DNA from: a virus
IMG/VR virus record: IMGVR_UViG_3300022744_000001
Coordinates: 258,022-322,021 of that record
Length of the DNA: 64,000 bases
Strand: one strand, 5' to 3'
A model generated the notes under the pieces. The model was not told the origin of the DNA and did not search any database. It saw only the letters and a program-made list of their open reading frames with translations. The translations under genes were made by a program, and so were the position numbers. This document shows, piece by piece, positions 21,548 to 58,247 of this stretch; the first letter of the stretch is position 1; every line of letters begins with the position of its first letter.

Positions 21548-21594
21548 GGTCTTCTCCGATTCGATCCGTTCTTGCCGTCAATCGTGGTCGCGCA

Positions 21595-22248
21595 CTAAAA
21601 CAAAAGTGCCCAGGACCCGATGAAGACCCGACCACGTACGGTCACGTCAGTTACCCGCGTAAATCGAAGAATCACCTGGGTACCTTGAGAACCATTAGGG
21701 ATAGTTAAAAGTGCTTTGTCCGTTGCGGAGATGAAGTTAACTCCACCGTCAAAGCTGACTTCCGCAGTCACATCAACGTCCGGGGCCACTTCTCGGTAGG
21801 ACCGCTGAAAGGCTGAGGTGCGGGCATCCGAATCGACAACCTCGAAAAGCTCGTAGGTCAACGTCGCTTGAGCCGGGCCTGCACCAGGGCCGCCCCACGT
21901 GATCCCCAGCGGAACCGTCTCGAGCACCGGGACTTGGACGTCAGTGGGGTACAAAGCCACCGCCCCATTCTTGCCGACAAGCACGCCTGTGCTGTTCGCC
22001 AAGTTCACCCCGCTCTCATCGAGCATATCGTCGTAGGCAATCTGGGTGAAGAGGCCGTAGGTACCCAAAATCCCCGCGTACTTCTTTGTGATGAGGTCCG
22101 GGAGGTCCGTGGGGTTCTGCACGATCACGTCGTCAGGCACCCGAACCACGTAGTTTCCCGTGATCTGGGTTTGAGGGGGCACCCCAAGTGACGCCACTAC
22201 GTCATTGATTTCGTCGTTGTACTGGTTGATGAGGTAGTGAGTGCTCAC
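21595..22248 (-). CDS. virion structural protein (217 aa)
   Basis: An ORF in the structural operon. The upstream giant gene overlaps it by 4 nt. Confidence 0.6.
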   Translation of the reverse strand: MSTHYLINQYNDEINDVVASLGVPPQTQITGNYVVRVPDDVIVQNPTDLPDLITKKYAGILGTYGLFTQIAYDDMLDESGVNLANSTGVLVGKNGAVALYPTDVQVPVLETVPLGITWGGPGAGPAQATLTYELFEVVDSDARTSAFQRSYREVAPDVDVTAEVSFDGGVNFISATDKALLTIPNGSQGTQVILRFTRVTDVTVRGRVFIGSWALLF

Positions 22249-29378: not shown

Positions 29379-29410
29379 TTGATTTCCCGTTCAGGTAGAA
29401 GAAGCCGTCG

Positions 29411-31540: not shown

Positions 31541-31542
31541 CT

Positions 31543-34146: not shown

Positions 34147-34199
34147 CAGTGGATCTCCCCGATTGTTGCGAATCTCAAGCCATTACGCACGGACCCACC

Positions 34200-34844
34200 T
34201 CAGAAGGTTAGACGCCAAGTGATTTCCAACGTACTGGTGGCTGGCTTCGAGATCACGTTGAACGTGAGGTAGTTGATCAACGTCTCTTTGGTGGTGAGAT
34301 CCACCAGAGTGTTGTATGAGCCGTTGGGGGGCGTAACCGGGTTGCGCACGGAAAGGTTCGTAGAGATGTTGCCGCCGATGAGCCCCATCTCGACCAGCGG
34401 GCCCACGGCCTCTGATTCAGTGAACACCGTGGTGAAGTCCACGACGTTCGTCGGGATGCTCGTCGGGATGCCATCACCATCAATGAACTGAGTTGTCGAG
34501 AACGTCTTGCGGGTAAGCTCCGAGTAGAGCGCTCGTTGCGTGTTGGTCGGAGCGGGCGGAGACAGAGGGTTCCAGCCAACATCGCCGGTACCTACAGCCA
34601 ACACGAAAGCGCCCTTGGACGGCTCGGAGTTGTCCTTGACAAGGCGAGCAATCAGAATCGAAGCGTCTTTGACAATGAGGTTGCGCTTCTCCCAGCGCTG
34701 AGTTTCCCCACTTCGCACATCCTGCATCTTGAAGAAAACGTCGCCCCGAATTGCATAGGGGACCCTCTCTTCATACCGAGGCTTGAAGGCGCCGAAGAAC
34801 GCATTTGCGACGCGGGAAAAAACTTCACTCTTCCTCATATTCAT
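34200..34844 (-). CDS. virion structural protein (214 aa), possible tail or baseplate component
   Basis: A 214-aa ORF with beta-rich composition that ends …LEITWRLTF. No family could be assigned. Confidence 0.6.
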   Translation of the reverse strand: MNMRKSEVFSRVANAFFGAFKPRYEERVPYAIRGDVFFKMQDVRSGETQRWEKRNLIVKDASILIARLVKDNSEPSKGAFVLAVGTGDVGWNPLSPPAPTNTQRALYSELTRKTFSTTQFIDGDGIPTSIPTNVVDFTTVFTESEAVGPLVEMGLIGGNISTNLSVRNPVTPPNGSYNTLVDLTTKETLINYLTFNVISKPATSTLEITWRLTF

Positions 34845-34916
34845 CTGCTCCAGGTCCGGTCCGTGGAGGCCCGGACAAAGCCGAGCTTCAACGTGCCCGA
34901 GTCATAAGAGAAAACT

Positions 34917-36656: not shown

Positions 36657-36666
36657 GGGTCACCTA

Positions 36667-42135: not shown

Positions 42136-42606
42136 TCAGAAGTTCCAGCTAGAAATGTCCTGCCCCACGCACGCATACAGCGAAGTGTTTACCCCGTAGA
42201 CCCCATACCCCACGCCACGGGGGTACTGAATACCGTCCGGGTCAGGAAACTCAGTCAACCAAGACACGAAGCGGTTTGCGGTGCTATCCCAGGCGTAATT
42301 CACAACGCTCTTGTCACGCACCCAAACCGAAGTTGCCCAGGTACCCCCGAGGGAAGCACCCTCCACGAGAGGGGTGCTGGGGAAACTGTAGTTACCGCCC
42401 GAGTAGTTGGCTCCCGCTAAAGGTAAATACGAAGCGATTGTGCCAACACTCTTGCCGGTCGAGGAGTACCAACCACCACTTGCAACAACAACTGAGGGGA
42501 CCGTGTACGAAATAACTCGAGACGCGCTCGCAAAGTTGCCGCCGCCAGCAGTAACCACAGAGGTTACTGCCCCAAGGCTCCTCGTGTTTGTGGTGAAATT
42601 GGCCAA
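42136..42606 (-). CDS. small fibre-associated protein A1 (156 aa), paralog of A2; candidate tail-fibre assembly chaperone
   Basis: MANFTTNTRSLGAVTSVVTAGGGNFASASR… aligns with A2's MANFTGNSRTLSTVGVIATASGGNFAGASR…. It sits directly downstream of B1. Confidence 0.6.
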   Translation of the reverse strand: MANFTTNTRSLGAVTSVVTAGGGNFASASRVISYTVPSVVVASGGWYSSTGKSVGTIASYLPLAGANYSGGNYSFPSTPLVEGASLGGTWATSVWVRDKSVVNYAWDSTANRFVSWLTEFPDPDGIQYPRGVGYGVYGVNTSLYACVGQDISSWNF

Positions 42607-42614
42607 GGGTCACC

Positions 42615-43583
42615 TTAGAGCGTCGGCGCGGTATTGTTCTCCCACGGCACAACATGAGTGGAATCCACCCAAGCATAAGCATCCGTAGTGAGATTGGCCG
42701 TATCCGGGTAGGCTCGAGAGAAATTGCCCCCAAAAGCTAGGCGCTGAAAGATGCCCTTGAACCCATAGTTGGTAGCGCCATCAACTTGAAGTCGAAAGAG
42801 GCCCGCGAACAGGTAATACTCCTCGTTGCTGTCAAACGGGTTCGGGGAAACACTCTGATTCGCCGCAGTAGGAGGGATTGGCCCAACGGTACCCGAAGCA
42901 GTCGAAGCGGTCCAATGCCAGTTGGTGAAGCTAGCCCCGCTAAGACCGTACTTTGACCAGGCGAAAGTGGAAGTGTTGATCGGAGACAAAACGGCGGAGG
43001 TGACAAGACCTGCGGTGAGGTTGATGAAAATGCCTACGGGGGACGTGTCCAAGGCGTTCGTGTTATTGAGGCCGTCAAAGAAAATCCGCGTACGCGGCGT
43101 ACCGGTCGTGTTGTCAGTAGTGAAGAAAAAGAATGAGTAGACGTTGGTACTCACAACATCACTGAAAGCGATGCTGTGGCACTTGTACGTGTTGTCCGTG
43201 TTGAAGAGCGCCACGCCAGTAGGGGCAGCATCGGTACCAGAGCCAAGGATCACGCCCTCATCAGTTGCTGAAGGAGTTTGAGTGATTCCAGGGGTACCGC
43301 CTGTGAACTTAGCGCTCTCGGAAAATTTGACGCGCCAAAGCAGGTTCGTAGTCGTTCGCTGGAAAGTGAACTCCCGCTGAGTCCCCGGATCTTGGATACG
43401 AAACCACGCGTTGGTCGCGGCCAAAGAGGTCGAGAGCGTGATCTGGTCTCCGGTCGAGTTGTAGGTGGTGCCATTCGAACTCGACTTGACGACCCAGCCC
43501 GCAGAAACCAGCAACTGCTTCAACGAGAAAATCGCAGCAGCCCCGGTCGCAGGAGTTTGATTGACCGAAGTAAACTTCGCCAT
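42615..43583 (-). CDS. fibre-like protein B1 (322 aa), paralog of B2 and B3
   Basis: The N-terminus MAKFTSVNQTPATGAAAIFSLKQ…TTYNSTGDQIT…NAWFRIQDPGTQREFTFQRTT…LWRVKFSESAKFTGGTP is conserved across B1, B2 and B3. The C-terminal two thirds diverge but end in VPWENNTA. Confidence 0.75.
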   Translation of the reverse strand: MAKFTSVNQTPATGAAAIFSLKQLLVSAGWVVKSSSNGTTYNSTGDQITLSTSLAATNAWFRIQDPGTQREFTFQRTTTNLLWRVKFSESAKFTGGTPGITQTPSATDEGVILGSGTDAAPTGVALFNTDNTYKCHSIAFSDVVSTNVYSFFFFTTDNTTGTPRTRIFFDGLNNTNALDTSPVGIFINLTAGLVTSAVLSPINTSTFAWSKYGLSGASFTNWHWTASTASGTVGPIPPTAANQSVSPNPFDSNEEYYLFAGLFRLQVDGATNYGFKGIFQRLAFGGNFSRAYPDTANLTTDAYAWVDSTHVVPWENNTAPTL

Positions 43584-43589
43584 GGTACC

Positions 43590-44558
43590 TCACATCTGCG
43601 CGGCGGTATTGTCTTCCCACGGCACCGCAAAATCCGTGGAAGTCAGCACGTAGGAATTGCTGGTAATACTTTCCGTGAACGGGTAGGACCTTGCAAAATT
43701 CGTCACGTAGGCCAGACGCTGGCAAAACCCCTTGAACATAAGATTGGTGTCTGTGCTCGCCCGGTACAACCCCACCAGTTTCAGCAGTAGCTCATTACCA
43801 CTGTAGATGTCCGGGCCAACACCGTTTCCTGCCGTAGTCGCTGGCACATAAGCCGTGCCGATGTTGGCAATCGCCCACACCTTCCAGTTAGTGAAGGCTG
43901 CGCCGCTGAGCCCGTACTTGTACCAACCCCAAACCCACGTAAGAACTGTACCAGACATGAGAGTGCCAGCACTGAAGGCACCCGAGGAGTTCACCAGGAA
44001 GATCCCTAGCGGAGAAACGTCGGCCGCGTTTACCGGTGACAAACCGTCCACGAAAAACCGGGTTCGAATGTTTCCGGAGTTCGGGTAGTCCGTGGTGAAG
44101 AAGAAGAACGAGTACACGTTGGTCGCTACCGCATCGCTGAAAGCGATCGCATGGCACCGATAGGTCGCATCCGTGTTGAAGAGAGCTGCACCAGTAGGGG
44201 AAGCATCGGTACCCGAACCGAAGATCACACCCTCGTCGGTCGCAGAAGGTACCTGGGTAACGCCAGGAGTGCCCCCTGTGAACTTGGACGACTCAGAGAA
44301 TTTGATCCGCCACAGCGTGTTGTTGGTCGTCCTCTGGAAAACAAACTCTCGCCGTGTCCCAGGGTCCTGAATGCGGAACCACGCGTTGGTCGCGGCCAGA
44401 GACGTTGTGCCTGTGATCTGGTCCCCGGTCGAGTTGTAGGTGGTACCATCACTCGAGGCTTTGACTGACCAGCTCGCGTTCACGAGCGTTTGCTTGAGGC
44501 GGTAAACCGCTTCGGCACCAGTCGCTGGAAGGTTGTTGACTGAGGTGAACTTAGCCAT
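43590..44558 (-). CDS. fibre-like protein B2 (322 aa)
   Basis: The N-terminus MAKFTSVNNLPATGAEAVYRLKQ… has the same architecture as B1 and B3. Confidence 0.75.
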   Translation of the reverse strand: MAKFTSVNNLPATGAEAVYRLKQTLVNASWSVKASSDGTTYNSTGDQITGTTSLAATNAWFRIQDPGTRREFVFQRTTNNTLWRIKFSESSKFTGGTPGVTQVPSATDEGVIFGSGTDASPTGAALFNTDATYRCHAIAFSDAVATNVYSFFFFTTDYPNSGNIRTRFFVDGLSPVNAADVSPLGIFLVNSSGAFSAGTLMSGTVLTWVWGWYKYGLSGAAFTNWKVWAIANIGTAYVPATTAGNGVGPDIYSGNELLLKLVGLYRASTDTNLMFKGFCQRLAYVTNFARSYPFTESITSNSYVLTSTDFAVPWEDNTAAQM

Positions 44559-44561
44559 AGG

Positions 44562-45035
44562 TCAGTTCCATCCCGTGCGGTCACGCCCCACGTAGGTATA
44601 GCCAGAAGTGTTTGTTCCAAACGCCCCATACCCAGAACCCGAGGGGTAGAACTGCCCCTGGGGATCAGGCTGCTGCGTCCTCCACGTAACGATTCGACCT
44701 GCAATCGAGTCCCATACCGAGTTGATGATAGACAGATTTCGCGAAGGCCAAACCGAAGTCTGATAGTTTCCGCTGTTCTTGGGACCCTCAATCAAAGGGG
44801 TAGCCGGAAAGCTGTGGTTGCTACCCGAGTAGTTAGCGCCCGCAAGAGCCACATAAATGGCAGTTGTGGCTGAAAGCGAACGAGGAGTGGTTGCATAAGT
44901 ACCGCCTGAAGCGGTCGCGATTATCCCAATCGTCGTTGGGATAGAACGAGAAGCTCCAGCGAAGTTGCCCCCAGAGGCGGTCGCGATTACCCCAACCGTC
45001 GAGAGAGTGCGACTATTGCCCGTGAAGTTCGCCAT
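44562..45035 (-). CDS. small fibre-associated protein A2 (157 aa), paralog of A1
   Basis: See A1. It sits directly downstream of B3. Confidence 0.6.
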   Translation of the reverse strand: MANFTGNSRTLSTVGVIATASGGNFAGASRSIPTTIGIIATASGGTYATTPRSLSATTAIYVALAGANYSGSNHSFPATPLIEGPKNSGNYQTSVWPSRNLSIINSVWDSIAGRIVTWRTQQPDPQGQFYPSGSGYGAFGTNTSGYTYVGRDRTGWN

Positions 45036-45046
45036 AAGGCTCTACC

Positions 45047-46030
45047 TCAGAGAATCGCCGCGGTACTGTTTTCCCACGGAATCACGAAAGTCGTGTTGAC
45101 CCAGACATAGGCATCCGTGGTCAGGTTCAACGTGTCCGGATAGGTTCGAGCCGAGTTCATGTTGAGAGCCATGCGCTGGCTGATGCCTTTGTAGTGCTGG
45201 GAGGTGTCCGTGCTATCCCGGAAAGCCCCGCAAATTTTGGCAACGTCCTCGTCCCCCGCGTAACCGTTCGGGGAAACGCTCACGCTGTAAGGAGGAACCG
45301 ATGTCGCCGCCGAAGAACCTGTCGCAGTGCGGGTGAGCCCAAACATACGATAAACGTTGAACGCCGCGCCGCTGAGCCCGTACTTGTACCAAGCCCTTAT
45401 GATGTTGAGGGTGATAGTGACATTGTGGACATCTGTAGACGTCAAAATCGCAGTCTTGTACGCCGCAACGATGAAAAGAGGGGAGGTGTCTTGTGCGTTA
45501 GAGCTGTGGACGCCCGAAACAAAGAAGTAGGTACGAGTCAAGCCCGTGGTGAAATCCGTAGTGAAGAAATAAACGTCGTAGACGTTGGTACTCACTACGT
45601 CGCTAAAACAGATAGCGTGGCTGCGATAGGTCGCATCCGTGTTGAACATCTGCGTACCGGTTGCGGTAGAGTCGGTACCAAGAGCCGACCCGAACAACAG
45701 GGCTTCGTCGGTCGCTGTCGGGGTCGTCGTCGCGTTCGGGGTGCCACCCGTGAACTTGGACGACTCGGAGAATTTCACACGCCAGAGCGTGTTGTCCGTG
45801 CCTCTCTGGAAGGTGAACTCACGTCGCGTCCCGGGGTCCTGGATACGGAACCAAGCTCGAGTGACGGCAAGAGAAGCAGCTGAGGAGATCTGGTCTCCCG
45901 TGCTGTTGTACGTAGTGCCATCTCCGCTCGACTTGACAACCCAACCCGCACTAACCATGCAGGTTTTGAGGCGGTAGATTGCATCCGCCCCTGTCGAGGG
46001 AACCTGGTTCACCAGAGTGATCTTCGCCAT
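45047..46030 (-). CDS. fibre-like protein B3 (327 aa)
   Basis: MAKITLVNQVPSTGADAIYRLKT… is paralogous to B1 and B2. A GAGGGG ribosome-binding site lies about 9-14 nt upstream. Confidence 0.75.
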   Translation of the reverse strand: MAKITLVNQVPSTGADAIYRLKTCMVSAGWVVKSSGDGTTYNSTGDQISSAASLAVTRAWFRIQDPGTRREFTFQRGTDNTLWRVKFSESSKFTGGTPNATTTPTATDEALLFGSALGTDSTATGTQMFNTDATYRSHAICFSDVVSTNVYDVYFFTTDFTTGLTRTYFFVSGVHSSNAQDTSPLFIVAAYKTAILTSTDVHNVTITLNIIRAWYKYGLSGAAFNVYRMFGLTRTATGSSAATSVPPYSVSVSPNGYAGDEDVAKICGAFRDSTDTSQHYKGISQRMALNMNSARTYPDTLNLTTDAYVWVNTTFVIPWENSTAAIL

Positions 46031-46086: not shown

Positions 46087-48018
46087 TCACCCGATGCTGA
46101 AGCCCGTCCACAAAAGCGAGGCCATGGGGTTGGTCGTAGGAGAGGCGTCCAGATACACCCGAAGTTCGTAAACTCGAGCAGTGTTGAAAATCTGGTTGGT
46201 GTTCGTCCCTGGGCTCGCGGTTTGAGTCAAGGTCTGGTCAATCACGTTGTAGAGGTTGACGTTCGCGAACGGAATCACGACCTGGCTTCGCAGCACCGGA
46301 GCAAAGCTCGTCCCGCCTGGGCCAAGGTCATAGAGGCTCATCGTGAGGCTCGCCGAGCTGTCCGTGGTCGAGAACATCGCCACCATGCGGAGCTTGACCG
46401 TGGTTGTGCTGTAGAGGGTCGGGTCGAAGTAGAACCCACCCATCGATTGAGTTACACGAGCCAACGTGATGGTGCGCCCGGAGGCCGCCGTGAGCTGGAT
46501 ACCGGACAGGCCGCCCGTACCGCCCGGGATCGTCACCGTGATGGGGTTCGTCCCGCTTGCGGTGACGCCAGCCCCCACGAAGTTGATGGAGGTGACGCTC
46601 GAGGACAGAGCAGAGCCTTCATCCGAAACCGTGATAGCCGGGGTTGGGACGTTGACCGTGACCGCCGTGGTGCCAGAAGCCGTTACGCCGCCACCAGTGA
46701 AGTTGATGGAGGTGACGGCAGCCGAGAGGGTTGAGCCCTCATCCTGCACCGTCAGGGCACTACCAGCACTACCCGGGATCGTCACCGTCACTGACGAGGT
46801 GCCCGTCGCAGTGACCCCAGCACCGACGAAATCGATCGAGGTGACAGCAGCCGAGAGCGGAGTCCCTTCGTCCGAAACCGTGAGAGCGCTTCCCGTACTA
46901 CCAGGAATCGTGACGGTTACCGCAGACGTTCCTGTGGCGGTTACACCTGCCCCAACGAAGTTGAGCGAAGTAACTCCCGAGGTGAGGGTTGAGCCCTCAT
47001 CCTGGACAGTCAAGTTACTAGCAGGGATCGTCACCGTGACGTTCGAGGTGCCCGTGGCTGTTACGCCACCGCCTACGAAATTGAGAGTGGAGAGCGCTGT
47101 AGTGAGGTTCGAACCCTCGTCTTGAACCGTGACGCCGGGGACCGTGACCGTGACCGCTGTAGTCCCTGTGGAGGTGACTCCTGCCCCTACAAAGTTGAGC
47201 GACGTGACGGCCGTCGAAAGGGTTGAACCCTCATCCTGGACCGTCAGGGCACTCCCGGTGCTGCCAGGGATCGTGACCGTGACCGAAGAGGTACCCGTAG
47301 CAGTGACGCCCGCCCCCACAAAATTCAGCGACGAAACCGAACTCGAAAGGGTTGAACCCTCATCCTGTACCGTGATGGCTGGGGTCGGGATCGTCACTGT
47401 GACCGACGAAGTTCCCGTTGCGGTTACGCCACCCCCAACGAAGTTCATGGAGGTCACACTCGAGGAGAGCGTGGAACCTTCGTCCTGCACTGTCAGAGAA
47501 TTGCCCGGGATGTTGACCGTTACTGCCGAGGTTCCTGATGCAGTAACCCCCGCACCGGTAAAGTTCAGCGATGCGGCCCCCGACGTAAGCGTGACCCCCT
47601 CGTCCTGCACCGTGAGGGGGTTGCCCGGGACGTTGACGGTAACGGCTGTGGTACCTGATGCTGTAATGCCTGCGCCAGTGAAGTTCAGAGACGCAACGCC
47701 GGTAGAAAGCGTCGAGCCCTCGTCCTGCACCTCCAACCCGGGGATCGTGACCGTGACGGCTGTCGTACCGCTCGAGGCGACTCCTGCCCCCGTGAAATCG
47801 ATGGACGAGACCGAGTTGGAAAGGGTTGAACCCTCGTCCGAGACCGTGAGGGTGCTGGCCGGGACGTCCCAGACGTCGATGATGGTGTCGTCTACAAGAG
47901 GCCCGCCGAAAGGGGGAGGGTTCGGATACGCCGAGCCCGGAGAGGTCGAAACCCAGGTGACGTAAGTGGTGCCAGGGGCGCCGGAGTCCCTGGCTCGCTT
48001 CTTGTAGAAGAGGGTCAT
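46087..48018 (-). CDS. repeat-shaft fibre or spike protein R1 (643 aa): conserved N-terminal anchor, about 11 tandem repeats of ~35-42 aa, and a unique C-terminal tip
   Basis: The N-terminus MTLFYKKRARDSGAPGTTYVTWVSTSPGSAYPNPPPFGGPL…IDVWDV is shared with R2. The repeat unit is LTVQDEGSTLSxxVTSLNFVGAGVTATGTSxVTVTIPG(+/-GSTGSA). The C-terminal ~145 aa are unrelated to R2. Confidence 0.8.
   Translation of the reverse strand: MTLFYKKRARDSGAPGTTYVTWVSTSPGSAYPNPPPFGGPLVDDTIIDVWDVPASTLTVSDEGSTLSNSVSSIDFTGAGVASSGTTAVTVTIPGLEVQDEGSTLSTGVASLNFTGAGITASGTTAVTVNVPGNPLTVQDEGVTLTSGAASLNFTGAGVTASGTSAVTVNIPGNSLTVQDEGSTLSSSVTSMNFVGGGVTATGTSSVTVTIPTPAITVQDEGSTLSSSVSSLNFVGAGVTATGTSSVTVTIPGSTGSALTVQDEGSTLSTAVTSLNFVGAGVTSTGTTAVTVTVPGVTVQDEGSNLTTALSTLNFVGGGVTATGTSNVTVTIPASNLTVQDEGSTLTSGVTSLNFVGAGVTATGTSAVTVTIPGSTGSALTVSDEGTPLSAAVTSIDFVGAGVTATGTSSVTVTIPGSAGSALTVQDEGSTLSAAVTSINFTGGGVTASGTTAVTVNVPTPAITVSDEGSALSSSVTSINFVGAGVTASGTNPITVTIPGGTGGLSGIQLTAASGRTITLARVTQSMGGFYFDPTLYSTTTVKLRMVAMFSTTDSSASLTMSLYDLGPGGTSFAPVLRSQVVIPFANVNLYNVIDQTLTQTASPGTNTNQIFNTARVYELRVYLDASPTTNPMASLLWTGFSIG
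46524..47853 (-). repeat. imperfect tandem coding repeats of ~105-126 nt within R1
   Basis: Units such as gaagttgatggaggtgacg…cgtgaccgtgac recur about 11 times. The antisense ORFs 46466..47125 and 47129..47965 (VTPAPTKL repeats) are mirror artefacts. Confidence 0.7.
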
Positions 48019-48126
48019 GTCGAGTCTGCCTCAACCACGCAAAGCATAGGTCAAATATGGGTTCTCAGATTTGACTGCTGCCACTAAAACCAGGTGTGCC
48101 TTCCCCAGCACGAAACCATGAGTCGC

Positions 48127-48837
48127 CTAAGTCTGATCCAGTTTCCATTGCCAGTAGTTTGTATACGCCTGGATCTCGTCCTCGCCCCATTCCCTATCGT
48201 CGATGAAGGCGTCAAGGAAACCACCAGCCTGGAAGGCGGATAAGTTCGTGTTCTTGCCGAGCGTCATGGGGCTGGTTGCTGCGATGGAGTTCCCCAGTGA
48301 TGCGCCGTTCTTCCAACCGATTCGCGTGCCGTTGATGTACATCGCAGCGTAGTCAGCAACTGCCCCTCCGGTCTGCACAGTTTTCGACGAGATGCCTTGC
48401 CGAAACAAACAAATCGCCTTCGTGAACGAGTAGGAGGGTCCCGACACGCCCGTAGCGATCGCTGTGCCCAGGTTCACCCAAGCCCCCGCAGGCACAGATA
48501 GGTTAGCGTTCAGGTACCAGCCGCAGTTCGAGCCCGACCAGTTGGACATGGTCACTGAGCCCGAATAGAGAACGATGCCAGCTGTGGCCATCGGGATAGT
48601 CGAGGTGTTGAGCCACGACCAGTCGGCCGCACTGGCCCCCGCAATGGATTGGCTCGCACCGTCAAATGTCAGCACGGGCAGCCCAATACCTGTCGTGGTG
48701 GTAAGCGTGGCAGTGCCTGTCAAATTCTTGGGGATCCTGCCCATGTCAGTCAGCGTGCCGCCGCTGAATTTGTGCGGGCGAAACCAATTTCGAGGCTGCT
48801 TCCACAGATGATTTTGAAAGCGGGCAATGACAGGCAC
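48127..48837 (-). CDS. LamG-like (concanavalin-A-like lectin or glucanase fold) protein L1 (236 aa)
   Basis: The C-terminal motif LGKNTNLSAFQAGGFLDAFIDDREWGEDEIQAYTNYW matches the Laminin_G_3 end signature (G…F.G.IDEVRIYNRALSAEEI). An upstream LTFDGASQSI block is also present. Confidence 0.75.
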   Translation of the reverse strand: MPVIARFQNHLWKQPRNWFRPHKFSGGTLTDMGRIPKNLTGTATLTTTTGIGLPVLTFDGASQSIAGASAADWSWLNTSTIPMATAGIVLYSGSVTMSNWSGSNCGWYLNANLSVPAGAWVNLGTAIATGVSGPSYSFTKAICLFRQGISSKTVQTGGAVADYAAMYINGTRIGWKNGASLGNSIAATSPMTLGKNTNLSAFQAGGFLDAFIDDREWGEDEIQAYTNYWQWKLDQT

Positions 48838-48846
48838 GGTGCACCC

Positions 48847-49560
48847 CTAAATCTGGTCGAGCTTCCACTTCCAGTAGTTCGTGTATGCCTGGATTTCGTC
48901 CTCACCCCACTCACGATCGTCCACGAACAGGTCTAGGAACCCGCCAGCCACAAAGGCATTCGTACTGAGGTTTTTACCCACTTGGAATGGGATCGCCGGA
49001 TTGACCGCGCCAGCGGTCCAAGTGCCCGCAGCGCGGTGGCCCACACGAAGGCCGTTGACGTACGCGGCTCCGGTATCGAAACCTGTGCTTGGCGAAACTG
49101 ATGTCCTTGTTGGTGGCGCAACACGAAACACAACCACTTGCTTGCCTGCAACGTTGCAGCCGGAAGCGCCGCACCGATAGAGCAGCGTCCCCGACGTGGT
49201 CTGGATGGCAAGGTCGGTGCCCGTGCTGCCCCACGCCAATCCGAAGACACCTGCCGTACCTGCCCCGCCCCATGTTCCAGGTTGGATCGTTCCAGTGTAT
49301 ACGACCCCGCCCATGGTGAAGGGGCCGGTCTGCATGAAGAACCAGTCCGCCACGCTGGACGCAGCCAGATACTCGCTGGTGCCATTGAACGAGCAGCCCC
49401 ACCCGCCATTCGTTAACGTCAGAGTGGCCGAACCTGTGGTGAAGTTTTTGGGCGAACGCCCCGAGTCGAGATATGACCCAGCCGCCTGCATTCGCCCCGG
49501 ATTGTACCAATGAAGCGGCTGTTGCCACTGCTCATTCACGGCGCGCGCCAAGTAAGCCAT
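48847..49560 (-). CDS. LamG-like protein L2 (~238 aa from the internal Met MAYLARAVNEQW…)
   Basis: The motifs are CSFNGTSEYL and VGKNLSTNAFVAGGFLDLFVDDREWGEDEIQAYTNYW. The track ORF extends to 49623, but that N-terminal extension overlaps L3. The start is chosen at 49560, giving a TGATG overlap with the L3 stop. Confidence 0.7.
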   Translation of the reverse strand: MAYLARAVNEQWQQPLHWYNPGRMQAAGSYLDSGRSPKNFTTGSATLTLTNGGWGCSFNGTSEYLAASSVADWFFMQTGPFTMGGVVYTGTIQPGTWGGAGTAGVFGLAWGSTGTDLAIQTTSGTLLYRCGASGCNVAGKQVVVFRVAPPTRTSVSPSTGFDTGAAYVNGLRVGHRAAGTWTAGAVNPAIPFQVGKNLSTNAFVAGGFLDLFVDDREWGEDEIQAYTNYWKWKLDQI

Positions 49561-50261
49561 CAGATCAGCCCCAACTTGTAATGCCAAAACCGTGTGTAGG
49601 CATAAACCTCGTCGTCCATCCACTCACGATTGTCGAGGAAGAAGTCGAGAAAGGTTCCCGCCTGAAAGCCTGACTGTGTAGAAGTCTTGCCAATGATGAG
49701 GGGACCCGCGGGAGTGACTGAGTTTGTGGTCCACGTTGAGTTCTTGAAGCCATAACGCCACCCATTGAAATAGCCGAAGCCCCACTCAATCTGCACACCG
49801 CCGATCGATGTGTGCGAAGACAACCCGCACCTGAAAACATGAACGGCTTTCACCGCAGGCATCACCTGGTTCATTACTCGCCAGACCGCCGAACCCGCGT
49901 TGGACATGAGACAGTCGGCCGATGCCGACCCTGGACCTGCGTTTACGGAAATCCCAGTGTTGGTCACGGCTGTGCGCGTGCACGGCGACATGATGCCCGT
50001 GTAAACCACCAGGCCCATCGTCCACGATGTATTGTGCAAGTAGGTCCAGTCCGCAGCCGCAGCGGCTGACAGGGACTGGCTGGTGCCGTTGAACGAGCCG
50101 TAAAGCACACCATTGCTGGTCGTGGTGCTCATGGTGCCGGTTAGGTTCTTGGCCGTACCTGAGCCCGAATCGGACAGCGTGCCACCGCTGTAGTCCTGTG
50201 GGCGCCAGCGATGATCGACCGACCGAACGAACAAAGGCTCAGTGCGTTGAAGGCGCGGCAT
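49560..50261 (-). CDS. LamG-like protein L3 (233 aa)
   Basis: The motifs are GSFNGTSQSL and IGKTSTQSGFQAGTFLDFFLDNREWMDDEVYAYTRFW. The N-terminus MPRLQRTEPLFVRSVDHRWRPQDYSGGTL parallels that of L1. Confidence 0.75.
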   Translation of the reverse strand: MPRLQRTEPLFVRSVDHRWRPQDYSGGTLSDSGSGTAKNLTGTMSTTTSNGVLYGSFNGTSQSLSAAAAADWTYLHNTSWTMGLVVYTGIMSPCTRTAVTNTGISVNAGPGSASADCLMSNAGSAVWRVMNQVMPAVKAVHVFRCGLSSHTSIGGVQIEWGFGYFNGWRYGFKNSTWTTNSVTPAGPLIIGKTSTQSGFQAGTFLDFFLDNREWMDDEVYAYTRFWHYKLGLI

Positions 50262-50264
50262 TGG

Positions 50265-52253
50265 TTACCCCACCAGATGCCAGTTGGTACCATCTGCCAT
50301 GAAATATGCTGACTCGCCGTCAGAGATCATGACCCACGAGGACGAAGTCTTGCTCAACGGGGTGACGATATTCCCCGTAAAAGCCACGGTAACTTGGTAG
50401 CCATAAGCCGGACCCTCTATTTTGACCGCAATCTGTGCACCGTTTGTTGCTGTCGGCAAATTCACGGTAAGGTTGGCTGAGGCTGCAAAAGGGTCAACTC
50501 GTACGAAATCCCCCGCCGCTGCGTTGTAGGTAGCAGTTTTTACCGCAGTAAACGTGTACGGGTTACTGCTAACGCCCGGGATCGTCACCGTGACCGGGTT
50601 CGTCCCGCTTGCGGTGACGCCTGCACCGGTGAAATTGATCGTAGTGACACTCGAGGAAAGCGTGGACCCTTCGTCCTGAACCGTAATCACCGGGGTTGGG
50701 ACGTTGACCGTGACCGACGAGGTACCCGTCGCAGTCACACCGCCGCCAGTGAAGTTCAGCGAAGTGACCGCGCTCGAAAGGGTCGAACCCTCATCCTGAA
50801 CCGTCAACGAACTTCCAGGAACCGTAACCGTGATGTTCCCCGTTCCGCTCGCGGTAACACCACTGCCAACGAAGTTCAGCGAAGTGACGTTGGTTGAGAG
50901 TGTCGAACCCTCATCCTGAACCGTGATCGCGGGGCTTGGAATGGTGACCGTGACTGCCGTTGTCCCCGTAGCAGTGACGCCCCCTCCCACGAAGTCGATG
51001 GAGGTAACCGCAGCCGAAAGCGTGGAGCCTTCATCTTTGACAGTAAGAGCGCTCCCACCTCCAGGAATCGTGACCGTGACAGCAGAGGCACCTGTGGCTG
51101 TGACCCCTGCGCCAACGAAATCGATCGACGCGACTGTGGTTGAAAGCGGAGTGCCTTCATCTGAAACCGTGAGAGCTGTGGCGGGGATCGTCACCGTGAC
51201 CGACGGCCCACCGGTTGCCGTAACCCCAGCTCCGACGAAGTTGAGAGTGGTGGCAGCCGTAGTGAGGGTGGAACCCTCGTCCTGTACCGTCAACGAACTC
51301 CCGGGGACCGAGACCGTCACCGTTCCTGTCCCCGACGCCGTGACCCCCGCGCCGGTGAAGTTCAGGGTGGAGACGCTCGAGGAGAGCGTGGAACCCTCAT
51401 CCTGTACCGTGAGAGAGCTGCCCGGGACCGTCACCGTGACCGCTGTGGTACCCGTGGCCGTGACCCCTGCGCCCACGAAGTCGATCGAGGTCACCGCACT
51501 CGAGAGGGTGGAACCTTCGTCCTGAACCGTGATGGTGGGAGCTGGGACGTTGACCGTCACCGTCCCAGGGCCGCCGCTCGAGGTGACCCCCGCGCCGGTG
51601 AAGTTCAGGGTCGTCGCCGCGGTCGAAACCGGAGTCCCTTCATCCTGCACCGTGAGCCCAGGGACGTTGACCGTGACTGCCGTTGTCCCCGTCGCTGTAA
51701 TCCCTGCGCCGGTGAAATTGATCGATGTGGCGGCGCTCGAGAGCGTCGAGCCCTCATCCTGAATGGTCAGCCCAGCCGATTCGGCCGCATGCTCAACCGA
51801 GTAGTACCACTGGACGCCCGAGCCAAAGTCTCGAGCCACAGCGTGCACCACCGAGACCGCGTTGGCCGCCGGGTTGATCGTCACCGTGGGGTCAACAGGT
51901 ACCCAGTTCGAACCAAACGCCAGAGTCCGCCCGCCCGTGGCGTCCTGCTTGACCGCCACCCAGAGGAGCTTGGTCGCCGAGGAGTGGGTAGGATTCCCGA
52001 GCGTCCGGTTGCCCCCCAGCGTGACCTGGAAATGGTCGCCAAGCTCGAGGTCAATAGCGATGGTCGCAGCATCTGTCAGAGTGACGACGTCGCCAAACAC
52101 CTCCCACACATCGACAATCATCTCTTCCGAGAGAGGGCCGCCGAAGGGGGGACTAAAGGGGTATGCCAGGCTGGCAGAGGTCGTCACCCAGGTCACGTAG
52201 GCTGGGGTAACGGACCCTGTATCTCTAGCTCGTTTCTTGTAGTACCGAGCCAT
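50265..52253 (-). CDS. repeat-shaft fibre or spike protein R2 (662 aa), paralog of R1 with a ~105-aa insertion and a different C-terminal tip
   Basis: The N-terminus is MARYYKKRARDTGSVTPAYVTWVTTSASLAYPFSPPFGGPL…VDVWEV. About 12 repeats of the same LTVQDEGSTLSxAVTSxNFxGAGVTATGT…VTVxIPG unit follow. The C-terminal ~100 aa (…ISDGESAYFMADGTNWHLVG) are unique. Confidence 0.8.
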   Translation of the reverse strand: MARYYKKRARDTGSVTPAYVTWVTTSASLAYPFSPPFGGPLSEEMIVDVWEVFGDVVTLTDAATIAIDLELGDHFQVTLGGNRTLGNPTHSSATKLLWVAVKQDATGGRTLAFGSNWVPVDPTVTINPAANAVSVVHAVARDFGSGVQWYYSVEHAAESAGLTIQDEGSTLSSAATSINFTGAGITATGTTAVTVNVPGLTVQDEGTPVSTAATTLNFTGAGVTSSGGPGTVTVNVPAPTITVQDEGSTLSSAVTSIDFVGAGVTATGTTAVTVTVPGSSLTVQDEGSTLSSSVSTLNFTGAGVTASGTGTVTVSVPGSSLTVQDEGSTLTTAATTLNFVGAGVTATGGPSVTVTIPATALTVSDEGTPLSTTVASIDFVGAGVTATGASAVTVTIPGGGSALTVKDEGSTLSAAVTSIDFVGGGVTATGTTAVTVTIPSPAITVQDEGSTLSTNVTSLNFVGSGVTASGTGNITVTVPGSSLTVQDEGSTLSSAVTSLNFTGGGVTATGTSSVTVNVPTPVITVQDEGSTLSSSVTTINFTGAGVTASGTNPVTVTIPGVSSNPYTFTAVKTATYNAAAGDFVRVDPFAASANLTVNLPTATNGAQIAVKIEGPAYGYQVTVAFTGNIVTPLSKTSSSWVMISDGESAYFMADGTNWHLVG
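50567..51770 (-). repeat. imperfect tandem coding repeats within R2
   Basis: These have the same unit type as the R1 repeats. The antisense ORFs 50923..51525 and 51529..51762 are mirror artefacts. Confidence 0.7.
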
Positions 52254-53439: not shown

Positions 53440-53958
53440 TCACGCCAAGGTGATCGAGAAGGTCACCGTCAAAGTGTCGTTGGTAAAGAGAGTACGCTGC
53501 GAGAACTGGATCTCGTGCGCCATCGTGCCTGCACTGGACAGGTCGAACAGGGCAGTCTTCTGCACACCCTGAGACGAAATGCCCGTATAGGTGAAGATCT
53601 TCTGAACGACCGTCTGGGTACCTGAGCCAGTCGGAAGAGTCACCGTGCCCAACGCACGGTCGAGCCCGTTACCGGTCAGCTCACTCGCCAAAGTCGTATC
53701 GCCCGCCGCAGGAGCCGCCGCATCGTTCGACAAAGCGATGTAGTTGAAACCGCCACCGAGGCCCGAGCGTTGACCCGCCGACCCGTAGATGTACGTGTGG
53801 ATCTGACGGCGCCCGGCATCCGTGACGATGTTCCACGACTCCTGCTCGTCGATCACCTTGAGAAGATAGAGGCCCGACTTCTCATCGAAGTCATAGGGCC
53901 TCTCGTGGCGAATGAAAGCCTTGGCCCGGGGCCCCTGCATCTGGATCGTCGGCAGCAT
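53440..53958 (-). CDS. virion structural protein (172 aa)
   Basis: An ORF in the operon with protein-like composition. Confidence 0.6.
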   Translation of the reverse strand: MLPTIQMQGPRAKAFIRHERPYDFDEKSGLYLLKVIDEQESWNIVTDAGRRQIHTYIYGSAGQRSGLGGGFNYIALSNDAAAPAAGDTTLASELTGNGLDRALGTVTLPTGSGTQTVVQKIFTYTGISSQGVQKTALFDLSSAGTMAHEIQFSQRTLFTNDTLTVTFSITLA

Positions 53959-54800: not shown

Positions 54801-57800
54801 TCAAGTGGCTGTCCTGAAAGTGATCGTGAAGTTGCCAAGCTCCACGAACTCGACACCCGAAGCGGAGACGTCCTTGGAGCCCGAGTCCCCACGAACCACG
54901 TACGAGACGGCATAGCCGTGGTTCCCCGGAAGGTCCGAAGAGGGCAGGGCAACTACAACGTGATTGGCAGTACGGCGAAGCAACTCAGCCTCCTGTGCAG
55001 CCGCTGTTGTGAACCCAGCAGCGAGCAACGTGGCCGAATCTGTGTACCCCGCAATGAGGGCCCCCGAAGACCCAATAATGTACGCCTGGTTAGATGCGCT
55101 TGCGACGAGTGCCAAAGTCGCAGACAAAGTCATAGCCTCGTCATCTTGGAACACGCCCTTGTGTTCCGTGGTGAGGCCGCCGCCATCAGTCGTTGGGGAT
55201 TGCAACGGAGCGGTGAGGATGAAAGCCAAGTTCCCGCCAATACCCAGCGAGGTCAGCTCAAGACTTGCCGAGGAGAGGCTCTCCCGGAGCTTACGGGAAC
55301 CATCCGCATAGGCCATGCGCGCGAAGGGGACGACCTGGAAATCGACCCCCGTTGTGGAGTCGATGGCATTGATCATGTCGCTCTGGGCAACACCCTGACC
55401 AATCGTGCGCTTGTTGAGTTCGAGGCTGGCATTTGACCGGATGGCCGGGTCAGCCTTGTCCCTGGTGGCGCCGGAGAGCAACTGGACCGTCGTCTCAATG
55501 TCGATGGAGTTGTTGATCGCCTGCTTGACGATGACATCCGCCGTTACGTGGCGACGAGAGTTGATCGTCCGCTGGAGCTGCTGAAGCAGGTCGTTGATCA
55601 CGTAAGTGACCGTGAAATTCTCATCATGGACGTAGTCCACAGAGACCGCTGCGCCGTTCACGATGTCCGAGGTGGCGGTACGAACAATACGCACAGGGGT
55701 CGTGGCAGTACCGTCGATGACCTGGTAATCCGGGTTCGTGGCATCAGGCCCGTCATACTCGATGGAGCGGTCGGCATTGAACACTCGAATGGTCTTGGTG
55801 TTGATGCCGATGCTGAGAAGGGGCTCCTCGATGAACCCAATCAGCGTATGCACTTCATCGTTCACCGTGATGGTTTCACCCGAGGGGATACCGCCCACTT
55901 GGTTGATGGAGAGGTAGTCGCTTGCAATGGTGCTTTCACCCTCGAGCAGCGGGTCCTCGGTCTTGTAGAGGTTGTACCCAAGCGACGTGTCCAAAGTGCC
56001 GGAAACTTCGCCCACAACCGAAACTACGCGTCGAACCGGCTGCAACGAGAACTTGAACTGGTTCACGACGCGGAACCGGTAGTCGGCCGTGACCACGTCA
56101 TCGATATTGGTCGCAACTTGACCTACGAGCGAGGGGTCAAGCTTGAACGTCTGGTAGTCGATGATCTGGGCGTTGGTCAGAAGGTAGTCCAAACCCTGAG
56201 TCACGTTTCGGACGCCAAGGCCCTGGCCCGAATTGTCGAGCAGCTCGACAATCGGGGTATTCACCGTGACGCGGCTGTCCTGAACCCGGAAGGTGAGGGT
56301 TGGTAGGTCGATGATCTGGCAGATGATGTCGCGCGCAATCTCGAACGTGAACGCGAACTTCTCCGAGACCTGACGTTCACGAAGACCCTGAACCCAGATA
56401 TCAACTTTGCCCCCGATGTGCTTGTGCCGAACCAGGTCGTAGTCGCGCATCATGAGGTCGTCGCCCGACTTCACGACCTTGGCTTTGATGACCCCTACCT
56501 GCTCGGCCGACGTCGAGGTGTAGCCACCCTCGGTACCCGTATCGACCGACACGAAGCCAAGGAGCGCTCGAGCAGCAAGGTCGGCATTCGACTCGCGGTC
56601 CGCACCAAAGACCGTGGCCTCCAGGTTCGTGACCAGAAGCCCCGTGACGCCTTGAGAGCTGGTAATCTGACCGGCTGGGCGGTTACCCACTTCGCCGAGG
56701 GTCTCCGCCACGATATCGACAGTGATTTCGTAACGCTTGCGGTCGAAGTTGTAGTAGGAATCCGCCTGGGCGGCGGACATGACGTAGGTGCCACCGACAC
56801 GGTAACGCACCGACGGGATGCCCAAAGAGCTATCCGCACTGGTGCTCACGATGGTGCCAGCGGGGATTGGAAGGTCGAAGGTCGGCCGAGACGTCGTGTA
56901 GAAGACCTCTTGCCCCACTGCCGGACGGCCAGGGAGGCGAGTCTTGTTCACGTTGGCAGCGAGCTTGTCAAAAGCCGAGTCGATGAGCGACTGAACCGCT
57001 GCGTCAGTCGAGTAGCCCAAGGCCGCCTTCAAAGCCGTCTTGTAGGCGCTGCTCGCGACCGGGTCCGATACCCCATCCCCGTTCGCATCATCGATTTGAA
57101 GCAGGGTCAGGAAGCTCTGGGCCCGGTGGATGAAGTCGAGCAGGAAGTAGAGACGCTCAGCTTCGGAAGAGAACGGGTCGATGGACACGTCGCGGGTAGT
57201 CGAGCCAGGGATGAGGCTGATCTCCTGGTCCACCCGCTGAATCGCCGCAACGTAATCGGTCAGAACCTGAAACTGGGTGCGGCCCGGAAGGTCCCTGATG
57301 GCCGTGTCGATGGTCAGAGGTGTCCCAAGCACTTCCTGAGAAAAGGCGCTCTCAACCTCCACCGAGGTGGCGCTGTCGAAGTAAACCCCCGTCACAACAT
57401 AGTAGAGAGGGTCCGTATCGGCCACCGAAGCGAACTGGTCGCTATTCAGGATGCCGGTACCTCCCGACCGATAGTGACGAAATCTCGCGTACTGGGTCAG
57501 GGTCCGCTCTTGAAGCGTCGAGGTGAAACGTAGGTCCCCCGAGTAGTCGGTGACCGTGTAGGTCTGGTCGAGGCGCGTCGAGATTTCATTCCCGAACACG
57601 TCCTCCTCGGTCACCTTGACCCGGATGACATTACCCGTCTCATTCCGTGTCCAAACGGTGGACTCATCCCCAATGTCTGACGTCGTTTCGTCGTAAACAC
57701 CCGAGGCCGACGTGATGAGATTCTCGTTCAGGAGAAAGTAGCCCGTGGTACCCGCGGGGGACGTCGAGGCGTAGACGTTGAACCCTTGGAAAATAGCCGT

Positions 57801-58247
57801 TTCTGTGGCCCCGTAAGCACCTTGCTCGATGGTTGCGGGGATAGCCGCCAGAATATCCACCGCATCTCGACGCCGCCGAACCTTGATGCCCGAGGGGATG
57901 TCCACCTGGGCCACGTCGCTCTGTCGGATTTTCGTGACCGAAACCAGAGCCGTTGCGCTGACCCCGCCAACGATATCGATGGTGCGCACCAAAATCGTGT
58001 TGAGGCCAGGCTCGAGGATCAACCCTTCCGTGTACGAACTCGGGTTCGGAATCGTGAACGCGGGCAGGTCGAAGCTCACCAGGGTAGGGTCAGAAACGAA
58101 CGCCCCGCCGTTGATCGAAACCTGGATATCCACTGCCGAGGTATCCGCGAGGCCCTCGATGAAGATCGAGCTGCGGTTCGTACTGAACACGAGGTTTTGG
58201 GTGTACCCCGATCCATCCCTGAGTTTAATCTGCGGTGCAGTGGCCAT
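54801..58247 (-). CDS. large virion protein (1148 aa). A baseplate-wedge (gp6/J-like) role is suggested only by size and by its position upstream of the fibre cassette
   Basis: A single 3.4-kb ORF. The functional assignment is positional inference and is not motif-based. Confidence 0.7.
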   Translation of the reverse strand: MATAPQIKLRDGSGYTQNLVFSTNRSSIFIEGLADTSAVDIQVSINGGAFVSDPTLVSFDLPAFTIPNPSSYTEGLILEPGLNTILVRTIDIVGGVSATALVSVTKIRQSDVAQVDIPSGIKVRRRRDAVDILAAIPATIEQGAYGATETAIFQGFNVYASTSPAGTTGYFLLNENLITSASGVYDETTSDIGDESTVWTRNETGNVIRVKVTEEDVFGNEISTRLDQTYTVTDYSGDLRFTSTLQERTLTQYARFRHYRSGGTGILNSDQFASVADTDPLYYVVTGVYFDSATSVEVESAFSQEVLGTPLTIDTAIRDLPGRTQFQVLTDYVAAIQRVDQEISLIPGSTTRDVSIDPFSSEAERLYFLLDFIHRAQSFLTLLQIDDANGDGVSDPVASSAYKTALKAALGYSTDAAVQSLIDSAFDKLAANVNKTRLPGRPAVGQEVFYTTSRPTFDLPIPAGTIVSTSADSSLGIPSVRYRVGGTYVMSAAQADSYYNFDRKRYEITVDIVAETLGEVGNRPAGQITSSQGVTGLLVTNLEATVFGADRESNADLAARALLGFVSVDTGTEGGYTSTSAEQVGVIKAKVVKSGDDLMMRDYDLVRHKHIGGKVDIWVQGLRERQVSEKFAFTFEIARDIICQIIDLPTLTFRVQDSRVTVNTPIVELLDNSGQGLGVRNVTQGLDYLLTNAQIIDYQTFKLDPSLVGQVATNIDDVVTADYRFRVVNQFKFSLQPVRRVVSVVGEVSGTLDTSLGYNLYKTEDPLLEGESTIASDYLSINQVGGIPSGETITVNDEVHTLIGFIEEPLLSIGINTKTIRVFNADRSIEYDGPDATNPDYQVIDGTATTPVRIVRTATSDIVNGAAVSVDYVHDENFTVTYVINDLLQQLQRTINSRRHVTADVIVKQAINNSIDIETTVQLLSGATRDKADPAIRSNASLELNKRTIGQGVAQSDMINAIDSTTGVDFQVVPFARMAYADGSRKLRESLSSASLELTSLGIGGNLAFILTAPLQSPTTDGGGLTTEHKGVFQDDEAMTLSATLALVASASNQAYIIGSSGALIAGYTDSATLLAAGFTTAAAQEAELLRRTANHVVVALPSSDLPGNHGYAVSYVVRGDSGSKDVSASGVEFVELGNFTITFRTAT

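What the first reader, a model, noticed from the sequence alone, without database searches (positions are those of the whole stretch)
48127..50261. Three LamG/concanavalin-A-like paralogs in tandem with 1-10-nt spacings
L1, L2 and L3 all end with the diagnostic G[GT]FLD.F.D[DN]REW..DE[IV].AYT.[YF]W block and have an FNGTS/FDGAS strand earlier. This is the Laminin_G_3 jelly-roll, often used for carbohydrate binding. Three co-linear copies with divergent loops sit between the two repeat-shaft genes. They may be alternative distal receptor-binding modules or lectin-type adhesins docking onto R1 or R2. L2's start overlaps L3's stop (TGATG), implying coupled expression.
Basis: partly seen in the sequence, partly recalled or inferred. 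Interest (0 to 1): 0.6.

Follow-up and report, generated by a model that had tools for sequence, protein, structure and literature searches.

The report
Three tandem LamG-like phage fibre proteins
Three neighbouring genes in the tail-fibre region of a very large phage encode old, diverged copies of a lectin-type (LamG/concanavalin-A-like) beta-sandwich protein, most likely host-binding accessories of the fibre encoded just upstream: a new but fairly ordinary example of a known kind of phage protein.

Summary
Three co-directional minus-strand genes are paralogs (36-41% identity, BLASTP E 4e-41): L3 49560-50261, L2 48847-49560 and L1 48127-48837. They are packed behind fibre gene R2 with a 3-nt gap, a 1-nt TGATG overlap and a 9-nt gap.

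The fold call is right, but the motif is not "diagnostic". Pfam, PHROGs and NCBIfam give no direct hit. Three other lines support a LamG-like jelly roll:
- An exhaustive profile search finds distant relatives, some passing Pfam's Laminin_G_3 threshold.
- hhalign against four of those gives 97.9% probability.

Function is inferred. In about three quarters of multi-domain relatives the domain ends a fibre-like protein, and one relative also carries an R2-type domain. A second phage contig shares only one cassette with this window: shaft repeats, R2's C-terminal domain (80% identical) and the same ordered trio.

Best reading: co-expressed lectin-type adhesins working with R2's tip, not alternatives and probably not with R1. 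This is a new member of a known kind, of modest interest.

The parts
49560..50261 (-). L3: first gene of the trio, 233 aa, stand-alone LamG-like jelly-roll protein
   Evidence: ORF and junctions. 54% identical to the positional orthologue X_a in L001. Hit by the family profile at 2.7e-61.
48847..49560 (-). L2: second gene, 237 aa from the ATG at 49560, which overlaps the L3 stop (TGATG)
   Evidence: Identical to database protein P0003. 69% identical to the positional orthologue X_b.
48127..48837 (-). L1: third gene, 236 aa, GTG start 9 nt after the L2 stop; the most divergent position of the trio
50265..50561 (-). C-terminal ~98-aa domain of fibre protein R2: proposed partner or docking platform of the trio, and part of the conserved cassette
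   Evidence: 80% aa identity to the C-terminus of the 851-aa fibre in L001, although third codon positions are only 36% identical. No relative found in PDB sequences or in cultured phages.
50265..52253 (-). R2: 662-aa repeat-shaft tail-fibre protein immediately upstream (3-nt gap)
   Evidence: Ten ~40-aa repeats. Residues 51-117 match annotated fibre proteins of Synechococcus, Caulobacter and Prochlorococcus phages. Residues 51-135 match relative P0021.
46087..48018 (-). R1: 643-aa second repeat-shaft fibre, downstream neighbour; not part of the conserved cassette
   Evidence: 57% identical to R2 over the N-terminus and repeats, but with a different C-terminus. Separated from L1 by 108 nt. Absent after the trio in L001/L002.
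48019..48126 (-). 108-nt intergenic gap after L1, with one weak terminator-like hairpin (48111..48096)
   Evidence: Terminator-like sites in the scanned region are at chance level (7 found, 5.3 expected), so this only suggests a unit boundary.

Best explanation
L3, L2 and L1 are three anciently duplicated, stand-alone members of a divergent branch of the LamG / concanavalin-A-like lectin jelly-roll superfamily. They lie in the baseplate and tail-fibre module of what is probably a very large contractile-tailed phage (448-kb contig). They are transcribed and translated together with the upstream fibre gene R2, through tightly coupled junctions. They most likely act as lectin-type host-surface-binding subunits at the distal end of the R2 fibre. 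On this view the strongly conserved 98-aa C-terminal domain of R2, and the conserved C-terminal strand-plus-helix of each L protein (FLDxFxDDREW..DEI.AYT.YW), form the constant attachment interface. The hypervariable middle loops (L1 residues ~96-166) would carry binding specificity. What is shown: the gene structure, the paralogy, purifying selection, the fold and superfamily, the cassette shared with a second phage lineage, and fusion of the homologous domain to fibre C-termini in relatives. What is inferred: incorporation into the virion, docking on R2, and carbohydrate or receptor binding.
For: Genes and selection:
- The ORFs are intact, and the trio is kept in the same order with the same junction geometry in a second lineage.
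- Synonymous sites are saturated (pS 0.7-0.98), while pN is only 0.10 in the C-terminal block. This indicates purifying selection, not recent gene conversion.

Fold and superfamily:
- A profile of the trio family, searched against 1.84 billion representative proteins, gives 48 hits.
- 12 of the 25 trimmed remote domains hit Pfam Laminin_G_3 at E <= 0.1. Among ten scanned individually, four pass the gathering score (77, 50, 49 and 30 bits against 27.6).
- hhalign of the trio-only profile against those four domains gives 97.9% probability, E 3.3e-13.
- The profile hits the LamG-like domain of pappalysin-2 in PDB sequences at 1.3e-5.
- BFVD hits are phage 'ConA-like lectin/glucanase' proteins. 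Several are stand-alone proteins of 227-260 aa. The list also includes an S-PM2 virion structural protein and an Arthrobacter phage minor tail protein.

Tail context:
- Baseplate_J / baseplate wedge protein at 54801..58247.
- R2 matches annotated fibre proteins.

Fusion (Rosetta-stone) evidence:
- In about 16 of 22 multi-domain relatives the domain ends within ~15 residues of the C-terminus of a fibre-like protein (collagen repeats, fibre repeats).
- P0021 (918 aa) has an R2-type domain (Smith-Waterman score 152, against 33 +/- 5 for shuffles) and a C-terminal L-type domain. It sits just after baseplate genes.

Cassette:
- Similarity between the window and L001 is limited to the shaft repeats, the R2 C-terminal domain (80% aa identity) and the trio.
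- The trio follows an R2-type C-terminus in both lineages.
Against: - No direct hit to any curated family, so the superfamily link is remote.
- The four Laminin_G_3 domains used for hhalign were themselves picked from hits of the family profile, so that test is not independent.
- The model's middle region (residues ~100-140) has low confidence, and TM-scores are only ~0.5-0.6.
- The L proteins have no recognisable adaptor or trimerisation module. Apart from ~15 N-terminal residues, the whole protein is the LamG domain, so how a free monomeric domain would attach to a trimeric fibre is unknown.
- There is no proteomic, structural or binding evidence.
- Only two lineages carry the trio, so the synteny argument rests on n = 2.
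- Small genes just downstream of fibre genes are also the classic position of assembly chaperones.
- R2's own conserved C-terminal domain could be the receptor binder.
Confidence: 0.55

Rival explanations
1. The L proteins are tail-fibre assembly chaperones or transient caps. On this view they are needed to fold or trimerise the R2 (and perhaps R1) C-terminus and are absent from, or only loosely kept on, mature virions.
For: They sit immediately downstream of a fibre gene and are translationally coupled to it, the classic position of Tfa/gp38-type genes. They co-vary as a cassette with the fibre's C-terminal domain.
Against: They show no similarity to any chaperone family in Pfam, PHROGs or NCBIfam. 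All fold matches are lectin or binding modules, and none is a known fibre chaperone. In relatives the homologous domain is a permanent C-terminal part of fibre proteins, and a structurally similar protein is built into the Pan3 virion. Three chaperones for one fibre would be unusual.
Confidence: 0.15
2. They are structural tail or baseplate-periphery proteins with a LamG fold and an architectural role (bracing or decoration), with no direct part in receptor recognition.
For: Trimmed L-like domains of some relatives match PHROGs annotated as 'baseplate wedge subunit' or 'virion structural protein'. The genes lie about 4.5 kb downstream of Baseplate_J.
Against: The pattern of a hypervariable middle and a constant C-terminal block, together with cassette-like exchange with a fibre tip, is more typical of host-range determinants than of scaffold parts. 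The PHROG annotations cover only 2-3 of 25 relatives and are themselves unverified.
Confidence: 0.15
3. They are carbohydrate-active enzymes of the ConA-like glucanase or lyase type (depolymerases) that degrade host surface polysaccharide.
Confidence: 0.07
4. L3 is made partly as a read-through extension of R2. The R2 stop TAA and the L3 ATG are in frame and 3 nt apart, so read-through would recreate the fibre-LamG fusion seen in relatives.
For: The in-frame 3-nt spacing is conserved in both lineages, and fused architectures exist in relatives.
Against: By general knowledge, TAA is the least leaky stop codon. No read-through signal was examined or found. L3 has its own ATG with a G-rich Shine-Dalgarno-like stretch inside the last R2 codons, so the spacing is explained by translational coupling.
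Confidence: 0.03

Closest known systems
Pfam Laminin_G_3 (PF13385) / LamG-like jelly-roll domains of phage tail and 'virion structural' proteins (for example 'ConA-like lectin/glucanase superfamily' proteins of uncultured Caudovirales, LamG domain proteins of Arthrobacter and Synechococcus phages)
   Same: Same two-sheet jelly-roll fold. Co-linear motifs: F-[DN]-G-x-S near the start, ADW-x-F-L, N-G, and a final strand plus short helix that parallels the LamG_3 'ID-x-V-x-I-Y-x-R-A-L-S-x-x-E-I' ending. The size (~230 aa, stand-alone) matches several BFVD entries. The phage tail-module context is also shared.
   Different: The sequences are too divergent for the Pfam model to detect directly. The C-terminal block DDREWGEDEIQAYTNYW is clade-specific and unusually conserved. 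The proteins are present as a fixed ordered trio coupled to one fibre gene.
Cyanopodophage Pan3 tailspike gp15 (PDB 9vyh, 269 aa)
   Different: Only 14% identity and no sequence-level hit. Pan3 is a podophage, whereas this window has a contractile-tail baseplate gene. No paper on the entry could be found in the library, so its attachment mode could not be compared.
T2/T6-type gp38 adhesin on the gp37 long-fibre tip (and, more loosely, fibre/accessory pairs such as Mu S-U and lambda Stf-Tfa)
   Same: Works like it in genetic logic: small genes directly after the distal fibre gene, which travel together with the fibre's C-terminal end as an exchangeable host-range cassette. This comparison rests on general knowledge of those systems.
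   Different: No sequence or fold relationship. There are three paralogous accessory genes here instead of one, and their fold is a LamG lectin.
Lectin-like Hc-N domain of clostridial neurotoxins, the C-terminal lectin domain of trans-sialidases, and CBM40 sialic-acid-binding modules
   Different: Those are domains of large toxins or enzymes from cellular organisms. Identity is 8-14%, and no ligand-binding residues could be mapped.

Membership tests
Pfam Laminin_G_3 (PF13385) | Direct match to the family HMM at or above the gathering score (27.6 bits) | tested here: not met
   No Pfam hit for L1, L2 or L3 at E <= 1. L1 again gave none at E <= 0.1.
Pfam Laminin_G_3 (PF13385) | Homology to bona fide members shown by profile methods | tested here: met
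   The trio-only profile finds proteins whose matched region passes the Laminin_G_3 gathering score (77.3, 49.8, 49.2 and 30.0 bits). 12 of 25 remote trimmed domains hit it at E <= 0.1. hhalign gives 97.9% probability, E 3.3e-13. Caveat: the reference domains were selected from the profile's own hits.
Concanavalin A-like lectin/glucanase fold (LamG-like jelly roll) | Two-sheet antiparallel beta-sandwich superposable on known members | tested here: met
Phage receptor-binding protein / adhesin | Encoded in the tail-fibre or baseplate module | tested here: met
   The genes lie between two fibre genes, downstream of Baseplate_J.
Phage receptor-binding protein / adhesin | Present in the virion at the distal end of a fibre | not testable with these tools
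   Indirect evidence only: the homologous domain is C-terminal in fibre-like relatives. No multimer prediction was available and no proteomics exists.
Phage receptor-binding protein / adhesin | Binds a host surface receptor or glycan and determines host range | not testable with these tools
   The host is unknown, and no cultured relative was found.
Tail-fibre assembly chaperones (Tfa, gp38, gp57A-type) | Sequence or fold similarity to a known chaperone family | tested here: not met
   No Pfam, PHROGs or NCBIfam hit. No chaperone appears among the structural neighbours.
GH16-type ConA-like glucanases | Catalytic E-x-D-x-x-E motif on a central strand | tested here: not met

The most novel reading that the evidence does not exclude
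The fixed number three may not be accidental. L1, L2 and L3 could assemble 1:1:1 onto the three-fold symmetric tip of the trimeric R2 fibre. This would replace the three identical C-terminal LamG heads of the fused relatives with three different lectin heads, giving a symmetry-breaking heterotrimeric receptor-binding cap with three specificities per fibre. Points in favour: both lineages keep exactly three genes in the same order; translational coupling would favour equimolar synthesis; and the second shaft gene R1 is also followed by exactly three paralogous ~325-aa genes.
Probability: 0.1. Interest if true: 0.6.

Novelty: new member of a known kind. Interest (0 to 1): 0.3.

Why it matters
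If the inference is right, this cassette shows a host-recognition module split into a constant docking part and three separately evolving lectin subunits. The docking part would be R2's C-terminal domain plus the conserved C-terminal helix of each L protein. That would be useful for annotating the many unassigned small genes next to fibre genes in huge phages, and as a possible scaffold for host-range engineering. In practice it adds a sequence-divergent clade, invisible to Pfam and PHROGs, to the phage LamG-like proteins. It does not change current understanding of phage adsorption.

Tried and rejected
- Direct family scans of L1-L3 against Pfam, PHROGs and NCBIfam found nothing.
- tblastn of L1 and of the R2 C-terminal domain against 50,697 phage records found no match.
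- The word-indexed homology searches found only the two lineages.
- AlphaFold with the 5-sequence alignment failed (pLDDT 34). It worked only after remote domains were added.
- The trio-only profile against PDB sequences gave no hit.
- Scans for more cassettes, using either the trio or the R2 C-terminal domain as query, found none in viral, metagenome or genome contig collections.
- BLASTP of R2 against P0021 missed the shared domain. It was recovered by Smith-Waterman with a shuffle control.
- The PHROG scan of the neighbours of the closest stand-alone relative (L006) was uninformative.
- Literature searches for the Pan3 tailspike and for LamG-type phage receptor-binding proteins gave nothing usable.
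- The promoter/terminator scan was at chance level.
- Recent gene conversion was considered as the reason for the conserved C-terminal block and rejected, because synonymous sites are saturated there.
- Further L-like domains hidden in the giant ORFs of the window were considered and rejected. The profile finds only the three.

Full report
**Observation**

The window's minus strand carries three adjacent ORFs at exactly the reported place. L3 is 49560..50261 (233 aa), L2 is 48847..49560 (237 aa from the ATG that overlaps L3's stop as TGATG), and L1 is 48127..48837 (236 aa, GTG start 9 nt after L2's stop). The upstream fibre gene R2 (50265..52253) ends 3 nt before L3. The downstream fibre gene R1 (46087..48018) starts 108 nt after L1.

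The three proteins align over their full length at 36-41% identity, and L1 vs L3 gives BLASTP E = 4e-41. Divergence is concentrated in the middle: L1 residues 96-142 are 19% identical among the paralogs, while the last 36 residues are 66% identical.

**Are they real genes?**

The word-indexed search of 5.8 billion proteins returned only these proteins and those of one other lineage. That lineage is represented by a 48-kb JGI contig and a Logan contig (L001, L002). It has the same three genes in the same order, with the same junction geometry (3 nt, TGATG overlap, 8 nt).

Positional orthologues are 54% (L3), 69% (L2) and 38% (L1) identical. The first two are clear orthologue pairs, while the third position is no closer than paralogs are to each other. 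Synonymous sites are saturated in every comparison (pS 0.7-0.98). Non-synonymous divergence is only 0.10 in the C-terminal block of L1 vs L2. The triplication is therefore old and all copies are under purifying selection. The conserved block is not a product of recent gene conversion.

**Context**

The window looks like part of a very large phage, since the proteins map to a 448,224-bp contig.
- Nearly all long ORFs are on one strand.
- There is a family-A DNA polymerase, a DnaB-like helicase and an SNF2 helicase.
- A 1148-aa Baseplate_J / baseplate wedge protein lies at 54801..58247.
- R2 residues 51-117 match annotated fibre proteins of Synechococcus, Caulobacter and Prochlorococcus phages.
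- R1 and R2 each carry 10-11 repeats of ~40 aa.

The trio therefore sits in a tail-fibre module.

**Fold**

Direct scans fail. There is no Pfam, PHROGs or NCBIfam hit for any L protein, and no PDB sequence hit with the trio-only profile. The motif is therefore not 'diagnostic' in the sense of being recognised by the Laminin_G_3 model.

An exhaustive HMMER search with the trio-family profile against 1.84 billion representatives gave 48 hits at E <= 1e-3. Most cover nearly the whole domain. Further evidence followed from these relatives:
- After trimming to the matched region, 12 of 25 remote domains hit Pfam Laminin_G_3 at E <= 0.1. Among ten scanned individually, four pass the gathering score.
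- hhalign between the trio-only profile and those four domains gives 97.9% probability, E 3.3e-13. The caveat is that these references were chosen from the profile's own hits.
- The broadened profile hits the LamG-like domain of pappalysin-2 (1.3e-5), and weakly a LamG-type S-layer protein and a pentraxin.

AlphaFold with five sequences was useless (pLDDT 34). With a 30-sequence alignment it gave pLDDT 76.9 and pTM 0.78: a beta-sandwich followed by a C-terminal helix, with low confidence only in the variable middle.
- Foldseek ranks the Pan3 tailspike first (E 1.9e-7).
- BFVD returns phage 'ConA-like lectin/glucanase' and 'LamG' proteins, several of them stand-alone proteins of 227-260 aa, plus an S-PM2 virion structural protein and an Arthrobacter phage minor tail protein.

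The fold call stands.

**Function**

Nothing here tests function directly, so what follows is inference from anatomy.

1. Fusion evidence. Of about 22 multi-domain relatives, about 16 have the L-type domain within ~15 residues of the C-terminus. Their N-terminal parts are typical fibre material, such as collagen triple-helix repeats and serial fibre repeats. P0021 (918 aa) combines an R2-type proximal domain with a C-terminal L-type domain (Smith-Waterman 152, against 33 +/- 5 for shuffles). It sits right after sheath-initiator and Baseplate_J genes. P0015 is the last gene of a structural block.

2. Cassette evidence. tblastx and blastn between L001 and the whole window find similarity only from the shaft repeats through the R2 C-terminal domain and the trio. 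The flanking genes are unrelated. The R2 C-terminal 98 aa are 80% identical although third codon positions are only 36% identical. That is more conserved than any L protein. In L001 there is no R1-type gene after the trio.

3. Expression. The coupled junctions are conserved in both lineages, and a G-rich Shine-Dalgarno-like stretch precedes each start. This argues for co-expression with R2, not alternative use.

4. Conservation pattern. A constant C-terminal strand and helix combined with hypervariable central loops fits a shared docking surface plus variable binding loops.

Together these favour lectin-type adhesins that work with the R2 tip. I put this at about 0.55.

**Rivals**

- Assembly chaperones (0.15). 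The gene position fits, but no chaperone similarity exists and the domain is a permanent part of fibres in relatives.
- Purely architectural tail or baseplate proteins (0.15). A few relatives match PHROGs labelled baseplate wedge or virion structural protein.
- R2-L3 read-through fusion (0.03). The in-frame 3-nt spacing is conserved, but translational coupling explains it more simply.

**Comparison with known systems and novelty**

Stand-alone and fused LamG-like proteins are already widely annotated in phages, and at least one structurally similar protein is a solved tail appendage. This trio is a sequence-divergent, very rare clade of that kind. Only two lineages were found, even after extra scans of viral, metagenome and genome collections.

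What is mildly unusual is the fixed, ordered triplet tied to a conserved fibre tip. It is also notable that R1 is followed by three paralogous genes of its own. I classify the finding as a new member of a known kind, with interest 0.3. The most novel reading still open is a 1:1:1 heterotrimeric lectin cap on a trimeric fibre (probability about 0.1).

Noticed in passing
window 42136..46030 (-): There is a second tandem paralog array directly after R1. The three ~325-aa proteins (45047..46030, 43590..44558, 42615..43583) are 53-60% identical. They are interleaved with two ~157-aa paralogs (44562..45035, 42136..42606) that are 53% identical. None has a Pfam or PHROG hit. Each of the two shaft genes is thus followed by exactly three paralogous small genes.
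   Followed up: partly
window 50259..50267 (-) and L001 8578..8586: The R2 stop codon TAA and the L3 start ATG are in the same frame, 3 nt apart, in both lineages. Read-through would give a fibre-LamG fusion resembling the fused relatives. The spacing is more probably just translational-coupling geometry.
   Followed up: partly
window 50265..50561 (-): R2's 98-aa C-terminal domain (...ISDGESAYFMADGTNWHLVG) is 80% identical between two otherwise unrelated loci. It has no detectable relative in PDB sequences, cultured phages, or the viral and metagenome contig scans. Its fold was not predicted.
   Followed up: partly
window 51900..52100 (-), R2 residues ~51-135: A short N-proximal domain of R2 (TLTDA..LGGNRTL..QDATGGRTL.F) is shared with annotated fibre proteins of Synechococcus phages, Caulobacter phage S2B, cyanophage PSS2 and Streptomyces phage Kromp. 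It is also shared with metagenomic fibre P0021.
   Followed up: partly
window 53440..53958 (-) and 34200..34844 (-): Two proteins (172 aa and 214 aa) both match phrog_5417 (unknown function). This is another duplicated gene family within the tail region.
   Followed up: no
window 16964..42081 (-): A run of very large ORFs (1527, 2377, 709, 867, 579 and 1804 aa) has essentially no Pfam hits. The only one is a weak, sub-threshold Big_5 match in the 1804-aa protein. These are presumably giant tail or fibre proteins of this huge phage.
   Followed up: no
L006 (12,519 bp) and L007: The closest stand-alone remote relative (P0007, 246 aa) lies on a ~12.5-kb contig that appears circularly permuted between two samples. 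The contig carries an integrase and an HTH regulator, so it may be a very small temperate phage or satellite.
   Followed up: no
P0036 and P0042 (remote relatives): In two remote relatives the L-like LamG domain is fused to BNR/sialidase-type beta-propellers. This is the same lectin-plus-sialidase pairing as in trans-sialidases and in NanA/NanB-type enzymes.
   Followed up: no
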